From a virus (lineage: Duplodnaviria > Caudoviricetes): a stretch of DNA of 64,000 nucleotides. Position numbers and translations under genes: made by a program. The notes under the pieces were generated by a model, which had not been told where the DNA came from, ran no database searches, and saw only the letters and a program-made list of their open reading frames with translations. Position 1 is the stretch's first letter, and each line of letters opens with the position of its first letter. The stretch lies in the IMG/VR virus record IMGVR_UViG_3300009183_000045; one strand, given 5' to 3'. Positions 41,354-45,602 of this stretch are shown piece after piece.

Positions 41354-43693
41354 CTATCCGAATAAATCAAACAAATCTGTCTGAACTTCTCTTCCTGTTT
41401 GTGGAAGTCTCCATCCAATACAATCATAAAACCTCTCTAGTGGAGGAGATACTATCTTGTCAAACATGGTTTGATAATCGGGTTTGACGTGTTCATAAAG
41501 TTCTGTAGGATATCTTTCCATGAAAGCCATACTTTTGTAATTGAAAGCGTTCTTGCTTGTGTAGAAATATTTCAATTTCATGGCACTTCCTATAGATTCA
41601 TACTGATGATCCAATTTATAATGCTTGAGGAGTTTATTAAAGTGAATAGCACTCTTGGCTTGGAGAGTTGTTCCCTTTCCTATTTGTCCAAAAGCGTCTA
41701 TTTTGGCTTCATATTTTTCATAATCAGAAATTTTGGTTCTAATTGAAATGTTTTCCACCGGCATACTACAAAAGTCTTCATGAGCTTTCTTAAATATGGT
41801 GTCTGCTTTCTTTTTATCTTGAGCCATCATTGCAGATTCAATCACACTTTTGATTAATTCTTTAACTTCCTTCGAGATTGTAGAGCGAGCTATCTCAACT
41901 CCTACATATTTGAAAGGTTTCTTCGGAATCTTGCCTTCTTTGTCTATAATGTGTAGTATATAGCGCTTCTTAGCATCAAATAAAGCTACATCACAAATTG
42001 TTTCTTGTTTAAAAACAAACCGTGGATCACTTACTTTCAGTTCTTTTCGAGCCCATATCTTGATTTGTTCATTGAGATATACGTCAATTTCCCCGATTAC
42101 CTTCCTGGCTCCTTCTGTAATCTTGCCGTTTTCCTGCAGATTGATGTTTAGGGTATTGAGGATGGGTTCGATGGAAAAGTAAGCAGAATCAGTATCTCCG
42201 TAGCGATACAGGTCGCCTTTCTTCCCGGTAAACCCTTGCTGCCGGGCATATTCTAAAACAATTTCTGGAGCTTGCTTGGCCACTGTTTGGCCTGTTAGAG
42301 TAATGCTAGCGGAATGATCAATGTCAAAAAGCGGAGAATATTTCTGTGCAAATACACCATAAATGGAGTTTAGAATCAACTTAAACACATTTTGTTGTGT
42401 GTCAAGGTTAAGAATCTCGGCTTCAAGCCGTAATTTTTCCTCTTTATCTGTTAATGTCTCTGCAATATCTGTTAATCTTGAGGCTTCTCTCTGAGTTTGC
42501 ACTCGTTCATCATACAATCTATCGATTAAAGCAGGCACAACACCACGAAATTTCTGTGTATACAATACATTATACTTAGAAATTGACAATTCTTCTTTCT
42601 GTACCAGGCGATTAAACTTTTCTTCAGAGAGAATTACTGTTTTTTCATTGGAAAGACGAATTGTATACTCATTATTTTCTATTTCGACTATTTTTCCTAT
42701 CTTTGTCTCCGGAGAAATGTTCAAAGTGATGATTGTATTTGGATATAGACTGTTTGCATCATAGCTTACCACAGATTTACACAGACCTCTCTCGGGTTCG
42801 TGTACATATCCACCTACATATTCATCTCTGATGCCGTCATTCTTGAATGTAGGGATGCGATATCCCTGTAAAAGAGCTTGATGAGCAACTGCTCCGGTGA
42901 TCATAGAGACCTTTCCGAGAGATTGTTCGAAGGGAATGAAACCTTTATAGGACAAAGCTCTAATCAATTTGAGAAATTTAAGCTTCTCTTCCATCTTTGC
43001 TAGCAGTCTTACATCTTGTATGTTGTAATCTACAAATAAATCCCAATCAGATTCTGAGAGAGCTGCTAGATTGGTGCCACCAACATCTGTTTTGCCTTCA
43101 TTCAATTCATATTCTGAAATATAATTCAAAGAATAAGACTCTCTGTCGCCGCGGGAGAAGGTTTTATACACCTCCATGTAGTCAATATTACTCACTCCAC
43201 GAATATACCACCTATCAATCATCTTACCCATCTTGTTCATTGCTACATTCTCTCGATAGTAGATAGCCCTTACCGGAGATAGACGAGAAGTCTCCTCTTG
43301 GCCCAAGAGTTTATTAATGCGATTCATTACATAAGGAACGTCAAATCCCTCAGAGTTCCAACCAACCATCATATCTGGAGGATCTTTCTCCCAGAAACTC
43401 AAAAAAGCATTTAATAATTCTGTTTCTTTTTTACAATATGTGTAAACAACATTATCTTCTTTAGGTTTATAGGGTTTCAATCCCCAAGAATAAAATTTTT
43501 GACTGATGGAATCAAAAATTGTAATTAAATTGATTGGGTCATTGGCTATTTTAGGCTCCGGAAATTCTCCTTGTTGACTATAACAAGAATTAAAGTATGA
43601 AGTCCAACACTGTTTATCTTCATCCCATACTTCATAATCTTCAAACATGTTGCTATTACGAAATTCTCCTAATTTTATTGTGGATTCAGCCAT
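41354..43693 (-). CDS. gp43: family B DNA polymerase, C-terminal fragment (ExoII-ExoIII plus polymerase domain)
   Basis: GEFPEP..A.DPINLIT, GWNSEGFDVPY, YNIQDV, YDANSLYP, QNVFKLILNSIYG, YGDTDS, KKRY, YVGVE and C-terminal clamp-binding-like QTDLFDLFG. ExoI is absent. Confidence 0.95.
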   Translation of the reverse strand: MAESTIKLGEFRNSNMFEDYEVWDEDKQCWTSYFNSCYSQQGEFPEPKIANDPINLITIFDSISQKFYSWGLKPYKPKEDNVVYTYCKKETELLNAFLSFWEKDPPDMMVGWNSEGFDVPYVMNRINKLLGQEETSRLSPVRAIYYRENVAMNKMGKMIDRWYIRGVSNIDYMEVYKTFSRGDRESYSLNYISEYELNEGKTDVGGTNLAALSESDWDLFVDYNIQDVRLLAKMEEKLKFLKLIRALSYKGFIPFEQSLGKVSMITGAVAHQALLQGYRIPTFKNDGIRDEYVGGYVHEPERGLCKSVVSYDANSLYPNTIITLNISPETKIGKIVEIENNEYTIRLSNEKTVILSEEKFNRLVQKEELSISKYNVLYTQKFRGVVPALIDRLYDERVQTQREASRLTDIAETLTDKEEKLRLEAEILNLDTQQNVFKLILNSIYGVFAQKYSPLFDIDHSASITLTGQTVAKQAPEIVLEYARQQGFTGKKGDLYRYGDTDSAYFSIEPILNTLNINLQENGKITEGARKVIGEIDVYLNEQIKIWARKELKVSDPRFVFKQETICDVALFDAKKRYILHIIDKEGKIPKKPFKYVGVEIARSTISKEVKELIKSVIESAMMAQDKKKADTIFKKAHEDFCSMPVENISIRTKISDYEKYEAKIDAFGQIGKGTTLQAKSAIHFNKLLKHYKLDHQYESIGSAMKLKYFYTSKNAFNYKSMAFMERYPTELYEHVKPDYQTMFDKIVSPPLERFYDCIGWRLPQTGREVQTDLFDLFG

Positions 43694-44487
43694 ATATTGC
43701 GCAGATTTGTTAAATTTTTATGTTTACAAGGAGATATATTCTCTATCAAATAAGATATAAATTCCTCTTCAGACATATTAGCGTATCTCTTACCCGAAAT
43801 CTCCCTTTGATTGGTTTTTTTACCCTTTTTGGCTTCTGATATCTTTCGTCCTCTTTCAATGTGGTTAACATTTTGGTTGTGCAAAGATTTTTTTAATCTA
43901 TTTTTTTTATCCTCAGCTGATAATTGAGATATATTTAATTTAGCCTTGCTGGATAGTTGCTGCCTCACCTCTAATGTATATCCTGCAGAGACTACCTTGG
44001 ACCTATCCCAGTGGCCGTAAATATATTTATTTTTTTTAATATTCACCCTATTGCCACATCCACATAAACAAATTGGTAAATTTTCTAATTTAATCTGATT
44101 TAAAATTAAATTTCTTTTTTGGTGGGATTCTGAGACCTTAAGGCGTGTCTCTGGATTTTTCATTGGATGATTGATTGAATATTCTTTCCTGGCAATTTCA
44201 AATTGTCTAGAAGTAGTTTTTCTATTTTTAGAATTATGAAAACACATTCGATTAAAAGCAGATGATAATTTAGTCTTTATCTGAATATTGTCTTTTTTAT
44301 ACATTTTACACAAAAGCCAATGAGCTATAAAATGTTCCCTGGCGGTGAGTAAACTAATATTGGAAGTTTCATTAGAACCCCCTAAACATTTAGGAATTAT
44401 ATGATGTCTTTCATAATATTGAAGAGTTAATTTAATTCTAGTTGTTCCTCTAGTACAGATTTTGAGATATATAGACTTATAATTCAC
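43675..44487 (-). mobile_element. free-standing MobE-like HNH homing endonuclease splitting the polymerase gene
   Basis: YERHHIIPKCLGGSN..SNI..LTAREHFIAHWLL, NUMOD3-like ETRLKVSES and RKISEAKKG, CLCGCG...GH. GTG start; 3' end overlaps the gp43 C-fragment start by 19 nt. Confidence 0.92.
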
Positions 44488-44505
44488 ATATATAATTATA
44501 AGTCT
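44473..44505 (-). promoter_or_regulatory. 12-bp hairpin enclosing the HNH start codon, with a late-promoter-like TAATTA in its 5' arm
   Basis: AGACTTATAATT-atatatGTG-AATTATAAGTCT; TAATTA at 44498-44493, 5 nt before the GTG. Confidence 0.7.
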
Positions 44506-44516
44506 CTAAGTCCCGG

Positions 44517-44915
44517 TTAAGATTTTTTTCTTATTTTAATTTTATGATCGTCCTTGTATCTCATACCGTACGTTTCAATGTCCCAAAAGTAAATCTTTAA
44601 AGGATTTGCCAGTGCTTCTGGCTTATGGATATCATCTTTGAATGAAGACAACAAAAATTCTTGTTCACAACTGAGATTGTGAAATATTCTTTTAATGGCC
44701 GTCTCGTTTACAAATTTATTACGTTCAAATTGATTTTTGAACTTAACTTTTTTTAGAGGTGTATTAAAAATAGAGACCGCATCTGTGCCGTATGCAGATT
44801 CTACGAACAGATGCGGTTCATAACTGGATTCTAATTTGATTCGTTTACCATTTTCATTCCACGTCCACAGATGGACACACTGTTTTGCGGAATCATAAAA
44901 GACATTTCGATACAT
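44517..44915 (-). CDS. gp43: family B DNA polymerase, N-terminal fragment (N-domain plus ExoI)
   Basis: MYRNVFYD....VHLWTW.ENGKRI....YEP.LF and PLKIYFWDIETY (ExoI DxE), then 16 extra aa and TAA. Confidence 0.9.
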   Translation of the reverse strand: MYRNVFYDSAKQCVHLWTWNENGKRIKLESSYEPHLFVESAYGTDAVSIFNTPLKKVKFKNQFERNKFVNETAIKRIFHNLSCEQEFLLSSFKDDIHKPEALANPLKIYFWDIETYGMRYKDDHKIKIRKKS

Positions 44916-44951: not shown

Positions 44952-45602
44952 CTATTTTACTTTCCATTTAACATCAAACTCGCTCCAATCTTCTGGAACA
45001 TCTTCAAATTTATTTTCTGTTAAAACTCCCCATCCAGATGAGCATTTTTTATAATTATCATCCAAGAAGACTTCAAAATTACTTAATTTGTTTTGAAATG
45101 TTTTAGATTTATTTGTGTAGATATTAGGTCTTCCGTCTTTTTCTACTTCACATTGTATTGTTTCTATAGATTTGTTATCTATTAGCAATTTTAAAGTGGT
45201 TAAAACTAAAAAATCACACCCCTGTAAATCACTTATATAAGTTTTAACACTTTTAATATCATTTTCTTCTAAAAAATTTATTAAATTTACAGTAGGCACC
45301 ACAATTTTTTCTTGGGTTTTAATTAAATGATATAAATTACTTTCTTTATTAGGTTCTAACAATGAACTAGAATCACCGTTGTTGCTTGATATGTAGAAAT
45401 ACATACTTTCATTATGTCTATCACACACAGCAGCATTAATTATTTTTACATGGGGGTGGGAGTTAAATCTTTGAAATAAAATTCTACAAAAATTTGGATT
45501 GGCTTCAAATATAAAAACTTTTTCATAATCATCAATCAAACCAGAAACACCATTTCCGTGATGGCCTCCTACATAAATTAAAACATTTTCGAATTTTTTC
45601 AT
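44952..45602 (-). CDS. FkbM-family SAM methyltransferase
   Basis: IYVGGHHG, FIFEANP, INAAV, N..SSSLL, V.TV.L and SDLQGCD..VL. Confidence 0.85.
   Translation of the reverse strand: MKKFENVLIYVGGHHGNGVSGLIDDYEKVFIFEANPNFCRILFQRFNSHPHVKIINAAVCDRHNESMYFYISSNNGDSSSLLEPNKESNLYHLIKTQEKIVVPTVNLINFLEENDIKSVKTYISDLQGCDFLVLTTLKLLIDNKSIETIQCEVEKDGRPNIYTNKSKTFQNKLSNFEVFLDDNYKKCSSGWGVLTENKFEDVPEDWSEFDVKWKVK

What the first reader, a model, noticed from the sequence alone, without database searches (positions are those of the whole stretch)
43580..44567. The break falls inside a ~54-aa extra module that may act as a built-in association zipper (intein-like beta-hairpin relic?)
Seen: deleting GMRYKDDHKIKIRKKS (44567-44520) and MAESTIKLGEFRNSNMFEDYEVWDEDKQCWTSYFNSCY (43693-43580) gives DIETY-SQQGEFPEP, the spacing I expect for uninterrupted gp43-type ExoI regions. 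The N piece is strongly basic and the C piece net acidic, like the charge complementarity of split-intein halves. Joined, they read K-I-K-I-R-K-K...T-I-x-L-G-E-F...D-Y-E-V, reminiscent of the hairpin-helix-strand following block A in phage inteins, but without Cys1, and the junction is followed by Ser. Inference: a small insert domain, possibly a catalytically dead intein remnant, made the site tolerant of splitting and now holds the two chains together. It could be a general non-splicing route to gene fracture and a usable heterodimer tag.
Basis: inference. Interest (0 to 1): 0.75.

Follow-up and report, generated by a model that had tools for sequence, protein, structure and literature searches.

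The report
Mobile-element tails on a split polymerase
A phage DNA polymerase gene has been cut in two by a mobile homing-endonuclease gene whose cassette also supplies two short, conserved, oppositely charged peptide tails that probably fit together to help the halves reassemble; this trick is already known from one phage ribonucleotide reductase and is now seen as a widespread, conserved module in polymerases.

Summary
On the minus strand a gp43-type PolB is split right after ExoI (DIETY). The N piece ends in a 16-aa basic tail (44567-44520). An HNH homing-endonuclease gene follows (44487-43675). The C piece opens with a 38-aa acidic head (43693-43580).

- The two pieces are one conserved module. 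It has dN/dS 0.07-0.10 and recurs on at least 24 divergent split PolBs.
- It exists unsplit (53 aa) in one PolB lineage.
- It is predicted to fold as hairpin-helix-hairpin, with the break in the first hairpin turn.
- It was not a pre-existing insert of this polymerase. Relatives 87% identical read DIETY-SPGEFPEP, and the module travels with the endonuclease. Split forms are scattered over the PolB tree, and cassette identity exceeds host identity.
- Intein descent has no sequence support and every splicing residue is missing. A weak fold likeness to joined intein termini exists, but BRK/GYF domains match about as well.

The closest known case is Aeh1 nrdA split by mobE, with element-derived basic and acidic tails essential for activity (PMC3045599). 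I file this as a new member of that kind. The assembly function is inferred, not shown.

The parts
44568..44915 (-). Native part of the gp43 (PolB) N piece: N-terminal domain plus the ExoI strand, ending DIETY (116 aa).
   Evidence: ORF list. phrog_262 DNA polymerase 3.6e-11. Aligns to residues 1-116 of intact 857-aa relatives.
44517..44567 (-). Basic C-terminal tail of the N piece (16 aa, ends KIKIRKKS, net +5) plus stop codon; predicted beta strand 1 of the module.
   Evidence: Conserved H-x-[IV]-K-[IV]-R-K-K in all split lineages and in unsplit P0141. dN/dS 0.05-0.27. Residues 117-131 lie in the predicted interface.
44464..44514 (-). Conserved RNA hairpin over the endonuclease start. The 5' arm holds a T4-late-promoter-like box (TATAATTA at 44500-44493; TATAAATA in relatives). 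The 3' arm is HEG codons 2-5.
   Evidence: Inverted repeat I4. RNAalifold gives 21 pairs, 6 of them compensatory. 91% of cells are paired against 24-60% in slid controls; covariation is 0.238 against at most 0.076.
43675..44487 (-). Free-standing MobE-like HNH homing endonuclease gene (270 aa, GTG start); its end overlaps the C-piece start by 19 nt.
   Evidence: phrog_655 homing endonuclease 2.2e-39. Weak Pfam HNH/HNH_5 hits. tblastn hits to Mob-type endonucleases including Aeh1 mobE. dN/dS 0.10-0.19.
43580..43693 (-). Acidic N-terminal head of the C piece (38 aa, net -5); predicted strand 2, short helix and second hairpin (YEVWD..K.W) ending SCY.
   Evidence: dN/dS 0.07-0.11 with synonymous third-position changes. 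Profile hits. AF2 secondary structure. Residues 1-9 and 18-23 lie in the predicted interface.
43571..43579 (-). Ser-Gln-Gln, probably the 3' edge of the inserted cassette; it replaces Ser-Pro of intact relatives.
   Evidence: Ser is AGT here and TCA in intact L013. SQQ stands against SP, and QQG is shared with the distant split form L006. This is inference.
41354..43570 (-). Native part of the gp43 C piece: the rest of the exonuclease domain, then palm, fingers and thumb.
   Evidence: Pfam DNA_pol_B_exo1 1.5e-17 and DNA_pol_B 3.3e-23. 87% identity to intact P0002 over residues 39-779.

Best explanation
A free-standing MobE-like HNH homing-endonuclease cassette has inserted into the loop-coding DNA just after the ExoI motif of a T4-type PolB gene, splitting it into two separately translated genes.

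The cassette carries three things besides the endonuclease gene:
- a short basic, stop-terminated tail for the upstream fragment;
- a hairpin and late-promoter control region for the endonuclease;
- a start codon plus an acidic 38-aa head for the downstream fragment.

Tail and head are the two parts of one small hairpin-helix-hairpin module, broken in the turn of its first hairpin.

Shown: the module is cassette-borne, translated, under strong purifying selection, absent from the nearest intact polymerases, and present unsplit in one lineage.

Inferred: after translation, tail strand 1 pairs with head strand 2. This re-forms the module next to the native interface and helps the two polymerase fragments assemble or sit correctly around the split exonuclease site, as the MobE-derived tails do for Aeh1 NrdA. 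No RNA or protein splicing is involved.
For: 1. Architecture. N piece, HNH gene and C piece lie in three frames, with HNH overlapping the C start. The same layout occurs in L001, L002, L004, L005, L006, L010, L012 and L014.
2. Absence from intact relatives. 857-aa relatives at 87% identity read DIETY-SPGEFPEP.
3. Mobility. On a 71-row PolB tree the split state needs at least 5 changes, and each split form is nested among intact near relatives. For the window against L006, head identity is 84% and HNH 69%, while PolB is 57-64%.
4. Protein-level selection. Tail plus head has dN/dS 0.07-0.10, against 0.10-0.19 for HNH and 0.034 for the PolB N piece. YEVWD and SCY codons differ only at synonymous sites.
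5. One unit. Unsplit PolBs (P0141, P0153, P0154) carry tail and head joined as 53 aa.
6. Fold. AF2 gives strands at P0141 138-143 and 146-151, a helix at 152-157, and strands at 164-167 and 172-174. Core pLDDT is 74-86 in the module-only model. The strands are the same, but pLDDT is below 50 over residues 129-161, in the 470-aa model.
7. Complex model of the N piece with C 1-340: ipSAE 0.86 with best of 3 controls 0.00. That mark was reached by 58 of 80 solved complexes and by 2 of 110 mismatched pairs. Runs agree in at least 93% of contacts and partner pLDDT is at least 88. The interface lists head residues 1-9, 11-12, 16, 18-23, 25, 30 and 37-43, and N residues 105-131. PolB structures are solved, so the overall pass may reflect likeness to them.
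8. Charge signs are conserved.
9. Precedent: Aeh1 NrdA-a/MobE/NrdA-b. Its tails originated with the mobE insertion, have pI 10.4 and 3.8, and are essential for activity; mobE overlaps nrdA-b (PMC3045599).
Against: - No experiment shows that these fragments assemble or that the tails matter.
- The native N/C interface is very large (about 260 confident contacts), so the tails may not be needed for association. In Aeh1 the tails were not required for heterodimer formation, only for higher assembly and activity.
- The complex tool returns no coordinates, so direct strand 1 to strand 2 pairing between the chains is inferred from the unsplit model.
- In the 470-aa model the first hairpin of the module has pLDDT below 50.
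- No clear Shine-Dalgarno sequence precedes the C-piece ATG in the window.
Confidence: 0.7

Rival explanations
1. The module is a collapsed, catalytically dead Hint/intein remnant: the first hairpin and helix of block A fused to the block F/G hairpin. It keeps only the fragment-association property of split inteins. This concerns origin and is compatible with the assembly function.
For: - The module-only AF2 model has inteins or Hedgehog Hint domains in about 15 of the top 50 Foldseek PDB rows, though all have E of 2.7 or more and probability of 0.21 or less.
- Those alignments run from the intein's first to its last residues while spanning the module from its first to its last residue.
- Related polymerases carry true inteins elsewhere.
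- The Aeh1 authors raised the same idea for their tails.
Against: - No Hint family appears in Pfam at E up to 10 and no intein in PDB-sequence profile searches.
- hhalign against the inteins of P0154 and P0156 gives probabilities of 0.2% or less.
- Position 1 varies (G, I, T, S, V, C). There is no room for block B in 54 aa. The module ends S-[CDST]-Y, not His-Asn. The +1 residue varies (S, A, C, K, L).
Confidence: 0.18
2. One reading: the 54-aa insert was a resident domain of this polymerase's ExoI loop, and its presence made the site tolerant of later splitting by the endonuclease.
For: Unsplit polymerases with the module exist (P0141, P0153, P0154). A module-bearing ancestor invaded by an endonuclease gene is therefore conceivable as the origin of the cassette.
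Against: - 112 of the 120 best relatives are unsplit and none shows the module. They include forms 80-87% identical to the window's enzyme.
- Unsplit module-bearing forms were found in one PolB lineage only, which also has split members.
- In that lineage the module is 38-45% identical while the rest of the enzyme is 85-91% identical. The module was therefore imported repeatedly rather than inherited.
- Module similarity follows the cassette, not the host.
Confidence: 0.07
3. The tails are selectively unimportant by-products. They only provide a stop codon, a start codon and space for endonuclease control signals, and the fragments assemble through the native interface alone.
For: The predicted native interface is large. 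In Aeh1 the tails were dispensable for heterodimer formation. The tail-coding DNA (AAAATTAAAATAAGAAAAAAA) is AT-rich and nearly invariant at the nucleotide level, which could reflect a DNA or RNA signal.
Against: - dN/dS of 0.07-0.10 with saturated dS (0.8-1.9) shows amino-acid-level constraint on tail plus head.
- YEVWD, W and S-C-Y are invariant or nearly so across 36 heads from very different PolB subfamilies.
- YEVWD is less strictly kept in two unsplit forms (CKVWD, YKVFD).
- The charge sign is conserved.
Confidence: 0.12
4. [quoted passage not shown] The 'tail' and 'head' are then untranslated intron ends that happen to be open in frame.
For: Group I introns with HNH ORFs interrupt phage DNA polymerase genes elsewhere (references cited in PMC2677866 and PMC10580990). 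A U precedes and a G ends some possible splice points (by eye).
Against: - No Intron_gpI or any other Rfam match at E up to 10 in 43300-44800.
- Only about 29 nt lie between the N-piece stop and the HEG start, and none lies after the HEG.
- The flanks show codon-level purifying selection.
- Unsplit proteins contain the same residues in frame.
Confidence: 0.02

Closest known systems
Aeromonas phage Aeh1 nrdA-a / mobE / nrdA-b (Friedrich 2007; Crona et al. 2011, PMC3045599)
   Same: A free-standing HNH Mob-type endonuclease gene sits inside an essential enzyme gene, between two adjacent beta strands at the active site. Its end overlaps the downstream fragment's start. The upstream fragment has a basic C-terminal tail and the downstream fragment an acidic N-terminal tail, both absent from uninterrupted homologues. 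An RNA hairpin controls endonuclease translation. There is no RNA or protein splicing.
   Different: The host gene differs (PolB ExoI loop rather than the RNR barrel). hhalign finds no sequence homology between the tails. The Aeh1 tails are a single known case of unknown structure. Here the tails are a conserved family on many divergent polymerases, with a predicted fold and natural unsplit copies. Function was tested in Aeh1 and not here.
T4 topoisomerase gp39/gp60 split by mobA
   Same: A Mob-family endonuclease splits an essential replication gene. The Aeh1 authors noted tail-like extensions with similar charge distribution.
   Different: The role of the tails is untested there too. The gene is different and no conserved module has been reported. 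Nothing about it was compared here.
Fractured genes: split intein plus free-standing endonuclease (Dassa et al. 2009, PMC2677866)
   Same: The gene order is host N part, then an endonuclease ORF, then host C part, in environmental phage-like DNA. The halves carry short complementary, oppositely charged association segments, and the C-side segment is about 35-40 aa.
   Different: Those halves are true split inteins (about 100 aa plus about 36 aa) with splicing residues that ligate the exteins. Here the total is 54 aa, no catalytic residue is conserved, and there is no Hint sequence signal.
Split gp43 (43A/43B) of Aeromonas phages 25, 44RR and relatives (Petrov, Ratnayaka, Karam 2010; cited in PMC2988022)
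   Same: A T4-type PolB is encoded as two genes that co-purify and are active. One case carries a Seg (GIY-YIG) endonuclease in the gap.
   Different: The split site is further downstream, the endonuclease family differs or is absent, and no conserved tail module is described. L010 and L012 here carry a second, downstream split in addition to the ExoI split.
BRK / GYF-type small beta-beta-alpha-beta-beta domains
   Different: There is no sequence relationship. The likeness is to a low-to-moderate confidence model and probably reflects a common small fold.

Membership tests
Endonuclease-fractured gene with element-derived assembly tails (Aeh1 NrdA/MobE type) | A free-standing homing endonuclease gene lies between two fragments of one enzyme gene. 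| tested here: met
   The HNH ORF 44487..43675 lies between the PolB pieces. The same layout occurs in at least 8 lineages.
Endonuclease-fractured gene with element-derived assembly tails (Aeh1 NrdA/MobE type) | The tails are absent from uninterrupted homologues and are inherited with the mobile element. | tested here: met
   Intact 857-aa relatives lack them. The tree needs at least 5 changes of state. Cassette identity exceeds host identity.
Endonuclease-fractured gene with element-derived assembly tails (Aeh1 NrdA/MobE type) | The upstream tail is basic and the downstream tail acidic. | tested here: met
   +5 and -5 in the window. The sign is kept in six lineages.
Endonuclease-fractured gene with element-derived assembly tails (Aeh1 NrdA/MobE type) | The fragments are translated separately and assemble into an active enzyme, and the tails are needed for activity. 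| not testable with these tools
   Only a model is available: ipSAE 0.86 against best control 0.00, a mark reached by 58 of 80 solved complexes and 2 of 110 mismatched pairs, with tail and head in the interface. Purifying selection on the tails is indirect support.
Intein / split intein (Hint fold, protein splicing) | A Cys, Ser or Thr nucleophile at intein position 1. | tested here: not met
   Position 1 is G in the window and I, T, S, V or C in others.
Intein / split intein (Hint fold, protein splicing) | A block B TxxH motif and a complete Hint horseshoe of at least about 120 aa. | tested here: not met
   The module is 53-54 aa in all. No TxxH is present and no Hint Pfam hit appears at E up to 10.
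Intein / split intein (Hint fold, protein splicing) | A C-terminal His-Asn (or Asn) and a +1 Cys, Ser or Thr. | tested here: not met
   The module ends S-[CDST]-Y. The +1 residue is S, A, C, K or L.
Intein / split intein (Hint fold, protein splicing) | Structural similarity to the Hint fold. | tested here: inconclusive
Group I intron with endonuclease ORF | A conserved catalytic RNA core detectable by covariance model. | tested here: not met
   No Rfam match at E up to 10 in 43300-44800.
Group I intron with endonuclease ORF | The sequences flanking the ORF are non-coding RNA. | tested here: not met
   The flanks evolve as codons, dN/dS 0.07-0.10, and are in frame in unsplit proteins.
Mob-type free-standing HNH homing endonuclease | An HNH catalytic motif and family-level similarity. 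| tested here: met
   phrog_655 at 2.2e-39. The HH-I-P..LGG...N motif gives weak Pfam HNH/HNH_5 hits. tblastn hits mobE and mobD genes.
Mob-type free-standing HNH homing endonuclease | Cleaves the uninterrupted allele and spares its own. | not testable with these tools
   Only the sporadic phylogenetic distribution speaks for active homing.

The most novel reading that the evidence does not exclude
The 54-aa module is a collapsed Hint domain. On this reading an intein lost its catalytic core but kept the mutually docking N- and C-terminal hairpins. It now serves as a non-splicing, self-complementing clamp carried by a free-standing homing endonuclease. That would be a missing link between 'split intein plus endonuclease' fractured genes and intein-less fractured genes, and a natural minimal heterodimerising tag of 16 aa plus 38 aa.
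Probability: 0.18. Interest if true: 0.75.

Novelty: new member of a known kind. Interest (0 to 1): 0.45.

Why it matters
The authors of the Aeh1 NrdA work proposed that tails brought in by a mobile endonuclease could be a general way to neutralise the fracture of essential genes. They expected such tails to be too variable to find. Here there is a second system, in the replicative polymerase at its proofreading site, with several useful properties:
- The tails form a recognisable, conserved family spread over many divergent phage polymerases.
- Natural unsplit copies exist.
- A fold can be predicted.

That makes the idea testable. Tail deletion and tail swaps can be done between lineages, and split and unsplit alleles of nearly identical enzymes can be compared directly.

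It also matters for annotation. A 132-aa 'hypothetical' ORF, an HNH ORF and a 780-aa 'polymerase' are one gene system in many freshwater T4-like phage genomes.

Possible use as a small heterodimer tag is speculative.

Tried and rejected
- **Group I intron.** An Rfam scan of 43300-44800 at E up to 10 found only chance-level snoRNA and sRNA rows.
- **Expression or splicing evidence.** No RNA holder is listed for the stretch. Laying two DNA and two metatranscriptome runs gave no joints and essentially no RNA cover. This is not evidence either way.
- **Whole genome.** None is held for this window.
- **Close named phages.** The N piece has no tblastn hit in the phage collection, and the C piece is at most 30% identical to cultured T4-like cyanophages and pelagiphages.
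- **Homology of the tails to the Aeh1 NrdA tails.** By eye, YEVYEDEE and FKVKK in Aeh1 resemble YEVWDED and IKIRKK. hhalign gives probabilities of 0.5% or less, so I rejected it as unsupported.
- **Head as a diverged duplicate of the exon just upstream of the break.** MAFFT hinted at this. hhalign probability is 0.7%, so I rejected it.
- **Sequence link to inteins.** Pfam at E up to 10, PDB-sequence profiles and hhalign against the inteins in P0154 and P0156 gave nothing. The only PDB-sequence hits are the Kelch-blade hairpin motif (E 4.5e-6 summed over repeats) and a C-type-lectin W..Y..SCY strand motif. I read these as motif likeness, not homology.
- **ESM Atlas by features.** The search returned only PolB exonuclease clusters at 0.87, below the 0.9 lead threshold.
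- **Flanking direct repeats that could excise the cassette.** None were convincing.
- **Other copies of the endonuclease in the window.** None.
- **Ribosomal bypass over about 1 kb.** Considered and dismissed as mechanistically implausible.


Full report
**What is in the sequence**

On the minus strand of the window, three ORFs in three different frames lie head to tail.
- A 132-aa ORF (44915..44517). It matches the N-terminal domain of T4-type family B polymerases (phrog_262). It ends DIETY followed by GMRYKDDHKIKIRKKS and a stop codon.
- A 270-aa ORF (44487..43675, GTG start). It is a homing endonuclease (phrog_655, 2.2e-39). It has weak Pfam HNH hits and DNA and protein similarity to Mob-type endonucleases of T4-like phages, including Aeh1 mobE.
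- A 779-aa ORF (43693..41354). It carries DNA_pol_B_exo1 and DNA_pol_B domains. Its first 38 residues, ending NSCY, match nothing in cultured phages; alignments start at residue 39.

The window has 34.5% G+C. It is held by freshwater and lake metagenome runs, and no whole genome is held for it.

**Relatives with and without the interruption**

A search with the C piece found hundreds of close relatives. Of the 120 best clusters, 112 are continuous polymerases of about 857 aa. These cover only residues 39-779 of the query, at up to 87% identity.

Seven clusters are 779-782-aa C pieces that cover the query from residue 1: P0001, P0012, P0039, P0042 and P0051-53.

The continuous forms read WDIETY-SPGEFPEP. 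The 54 extra residues are therefore absent from this enzyme's nearest kin.

At the DNA level, the Ser after the module is AGT in the window and TCA in the intact locus L013, and SQQ replaces SP. The inserted block therefore probably runs from 44567 to about 43571.

**The same cassette in many lineages**

The contigs of five split forms show the same three-ORF layout. The N piece is 132-135 aa and the endonuclease 266-270 aa, starting MNY. The endonuclease overlaps the C-piece start by 16-19 nt.

Two far more distant T4-like polymerases (L010, L012) and a third lineage (L014) have it too.
- The N tails share ..D-[DE]-x-x-[IV]-K-[IV]-R-K-K.
- The heads share T-I-x-L-G-[DE]-[FIL]-R ... Y-E-V-W-D-[DE]-x-x-K-x-W-x-x-Y-x-x-S-C-Y.

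**The peptides are translated and constrained**

Differences in YEVWD and SCY codons are all synonymous. Nei-Gojobori dN/dS for tail plus head is 0.07-0.10, with dS between 0.8 and 1.9. The same measure is 0.10-0.19 for the endonuclease and 0.034 for the polymerase N piece.

Together with the empty Rfam scan, this excludes untranslated intron ends.

**The module belongs to the mobile element, not to the polymerase**

On a tree of 71 polymerases built from the part downstream of the module, the split state needs 6 changes. At least 5 are forced by well-supported branches. Each split form sits among intact near relatives; for example P0012 is sister to intact P0021.

Between the window and L006 the polymerase is 57-64% identical, but the head is 84%, the endonuclease 69% and the tail 69% identical.

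This is the sporadic, host-independent pattern expected of a homing endonuclease that co-converts its flanks.

**Tail plus head is one unit**

I searched 1.84 billion representatives with a profile of the 38-aa head. It found 24 proteins, all family B polymerases.
- In 23 the head is at the extreme N terminus and is followed by the ..FP.P.. exonuclease sequence. These polymerases belong to very different subfamilies.
- The 24th, P0141 (891 aa), is a continuous polymerase. In it the tail-like and head-like segments are joined as 53 aa between DIEVA and FETSEFPKP.

A further search found more such unsplit forms (P0145-P0154), all in one polymerase lineage. Split members of the same lineage also turned up (P0155, P0156; L014).

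Within that lineage the module is 38-45% identical while the rest of the enzyme is 85-91% identical. The module region has therefore been replaced repeatedly rather than inherited.

I read the unsplit forms as most likely cassettes that lost the endonuclease gene. Such alleles would also be immune to cleavage. I could not polarise gain against loss rigorously.

**Predicted structure**

AF2 on the unsplit form gives the following elements, in P0141 numbering:

| Element | Residues | Sequence |
|---|---|---|
| strand 1 | 138-143 | EIKIRK |
| strand 2 | 146-151 | KIQLVF |
| helix | 152-157 | |
| strand 3 | 164-167 | EVWD |
| strand 4 | 172-174 | |

- In the 470-aa model the module has low confidence: below 50 for the first hairpin and 71-81 for the second.
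- In the module-only model the core blocks reach 74-86, with mean pLDDT 67.6.
- The endonuclease gene interrupts the turn between strands 1 and 2.
- The YEVWD..K.W motif matches the classic Kelch-blade hairpin pattern in a PDB-sequence search. I take that as confirmation of a hairpin, not as homology.

**Complex model**

The window's N piece was folded with residues 1-340 of the C piece, each with its own alignment.
- The score was ipSAE 0.86 with the best of 3 controls at 0.00.
- That mark was reached by 58 of 80 solved complexes and by 2 of 110 mismatched pairs.
- The runs agree in at least 93% of contacts, and partner pLDDT is at least 88.
- The pairs with the least expected error rebuild the native sheet, with N 107-114 lying between C 56-63 and C 106-110.
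- The confident interface also lists head residues 1-9, 18-23 and 37-43, and N residues up to 131, which includes the whole tail.

PolB structures are solved, so the overall pass may come from likeness to them. No coordinates are returned, so tail-head pairing remains an inference.

**Intein question**

Every defining sequence feature of an intein fails.
- Position 1 varies.
- There is no block B and no room for one.
- The module ends S-[CDST]-Y.
- The +1 residue varies.
- No Hint signal appears in Pfam, PDB-sequence or hhalign tests.

Fold searches with the module-only model are suggestive but weak.
- Foldseek lists inteins or Hedgehog Hint domains in about 15 of 50 rows, all with E of 2.7 or more.
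- Those alignments join the intein's first and last residues to the module's ends.

I therefore keep 'collapsed Hint relic' as a minority origin hypothesis of about 0.18. It would not change the proposed function.

**Control of the endonuclease gene**

Between the N-piece stop and the endonuclease start lies a hairpin at about 44514-44464.
- Its 5' arm contains a T4-late-promoter-like TATAAATA, which is TATAATTA in the window.
- Its 3' arm is endonuclease codons 2-5.

Across six lineages:
- 91% of cells pair, against 24-60% when the partners are slid.
- Six pairs show compensatory changes.
- Covariation is 0.238 against at most 0.076 in the slid controls.

This is the arrangement described for Aeh1 mobE and T4 I-TevI. 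Read-through transcripts hide the start, and late transcripts that begin inside the stem free it (PMC3045599, Fig. 5 legend). The mechanism here is inferred.

**Comparison with what is known**

The closest case is Aeh1 nrdA split by mobE. Its unique tails originated with the insertion, have pI 10.4 and 3.8, and are essential for activity. They were proposed as a general antidote to fragmentation, and the authors also floated a degenerate-intein origin (PMC3045599).

The present locus has the same anatomy in a different gene, without detectable tail homology.

It differs from the other known arrangements as follows:
- Split-intein 'fractured genes' (PMC2677866) splice their halves; this locus has no splicing apparatus.
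- The known 43A/43B split of Aeromonas phage gp43 (PMC2988022) lies at a different site and has no described tail module.

**Verdict**

- The 'association zipper' idea is plausible and now has conservation, unsplit copies and models behind it.
- The 'pre-existing insert' order of events is contradicted.
- The 'intein relic' idea is unsupported by sequence and only weakly compatible by predicted fold.
- The principle is already published, so this is a new member of a known kind. Its added value is that it is a conserved, widespread and structurally predictable tail family.

Noticed in passing
window 44464-44514 (minus strand); A10 rows from L001-L007: A conserved RNA hairpin sequesters the endonuclease start. 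A T4-late-promoter-like TATAAATA sits in its 5' arm. Six base pairs show compensatory changes, and these also change endonuclease residue 4 (K, R or T).
   Followed up: yes
window 44485-44500: In the window the endonuclease starts with GTG, and the late-promoter-like box is degenerate (TATAATTA). In L001, L002 and L006 the start is ATG and the box is TATAAATA. This may be early decay of endonuclease expression, although the ORF is intact and under purifying selection.
   Followed up: partly
window 44952-45602 (minus strand): A 216-aa FkbM-type methyltransferase ORF (Pfam Methyltransf_21, 4.2e-7) sits between the 439-aa upstream gene and the polymerase N piece. L002 and L013 have no gene at this position, so it is another variable insertion next to gene 43.
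   Followed up: partly
L010 4471-6941; L012 4239-5862: The distant split polymerases in L010 and L012 carry a second interruption further downstream. A middle piece of 413-489 aa is followed by one to three small ORFs and then a 362-367-aa C piece. These enzymes are therefore encoded in three pieces.
   Followed up: no
P0154 (about 548-955), P0156 (about 398-800), ends of P0126 and P0135: Polymerases that carry the module also carry true inteins at other sites. P0156 matches Pfam Intein_splicing at 1.1e-12. The same genes therefore host several kinds of mobile element.
   Followed up: partly
L009 3275-3454 and 4201-4380 (Aeh1 nrdA-a end, nrdA-b start): By eye, the Aeh1 tails contain FKVKK and YEVYEDEE, reminiscent of IKIRKK and YEVWDED here. 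hhalign gives no support (probability 0.5% or less). This could be convergence on a charged hairpin.
   Followed up: yes
L014 2091-2101: In the P0141-type lineage the endonuclease (309 aa, starting MKLDYNEAY) overlaps the end of the N tail instead of following a hairpin-bearing spacer. Cassette architecture at the 5' junction therefore varies between lineages.
   Followed up: no
window 43694-43723: No Shine-Dalgarno-like sequence precedes the C-piece ATG in the window, L002 or L006, whereas L001, L004 and L005 have AAGAG or GAGAA-like stretches. How the C piece is initiated is open. Possibilities are coupling to the endonuclease ORF or leader-independent features.
   Followed up: no
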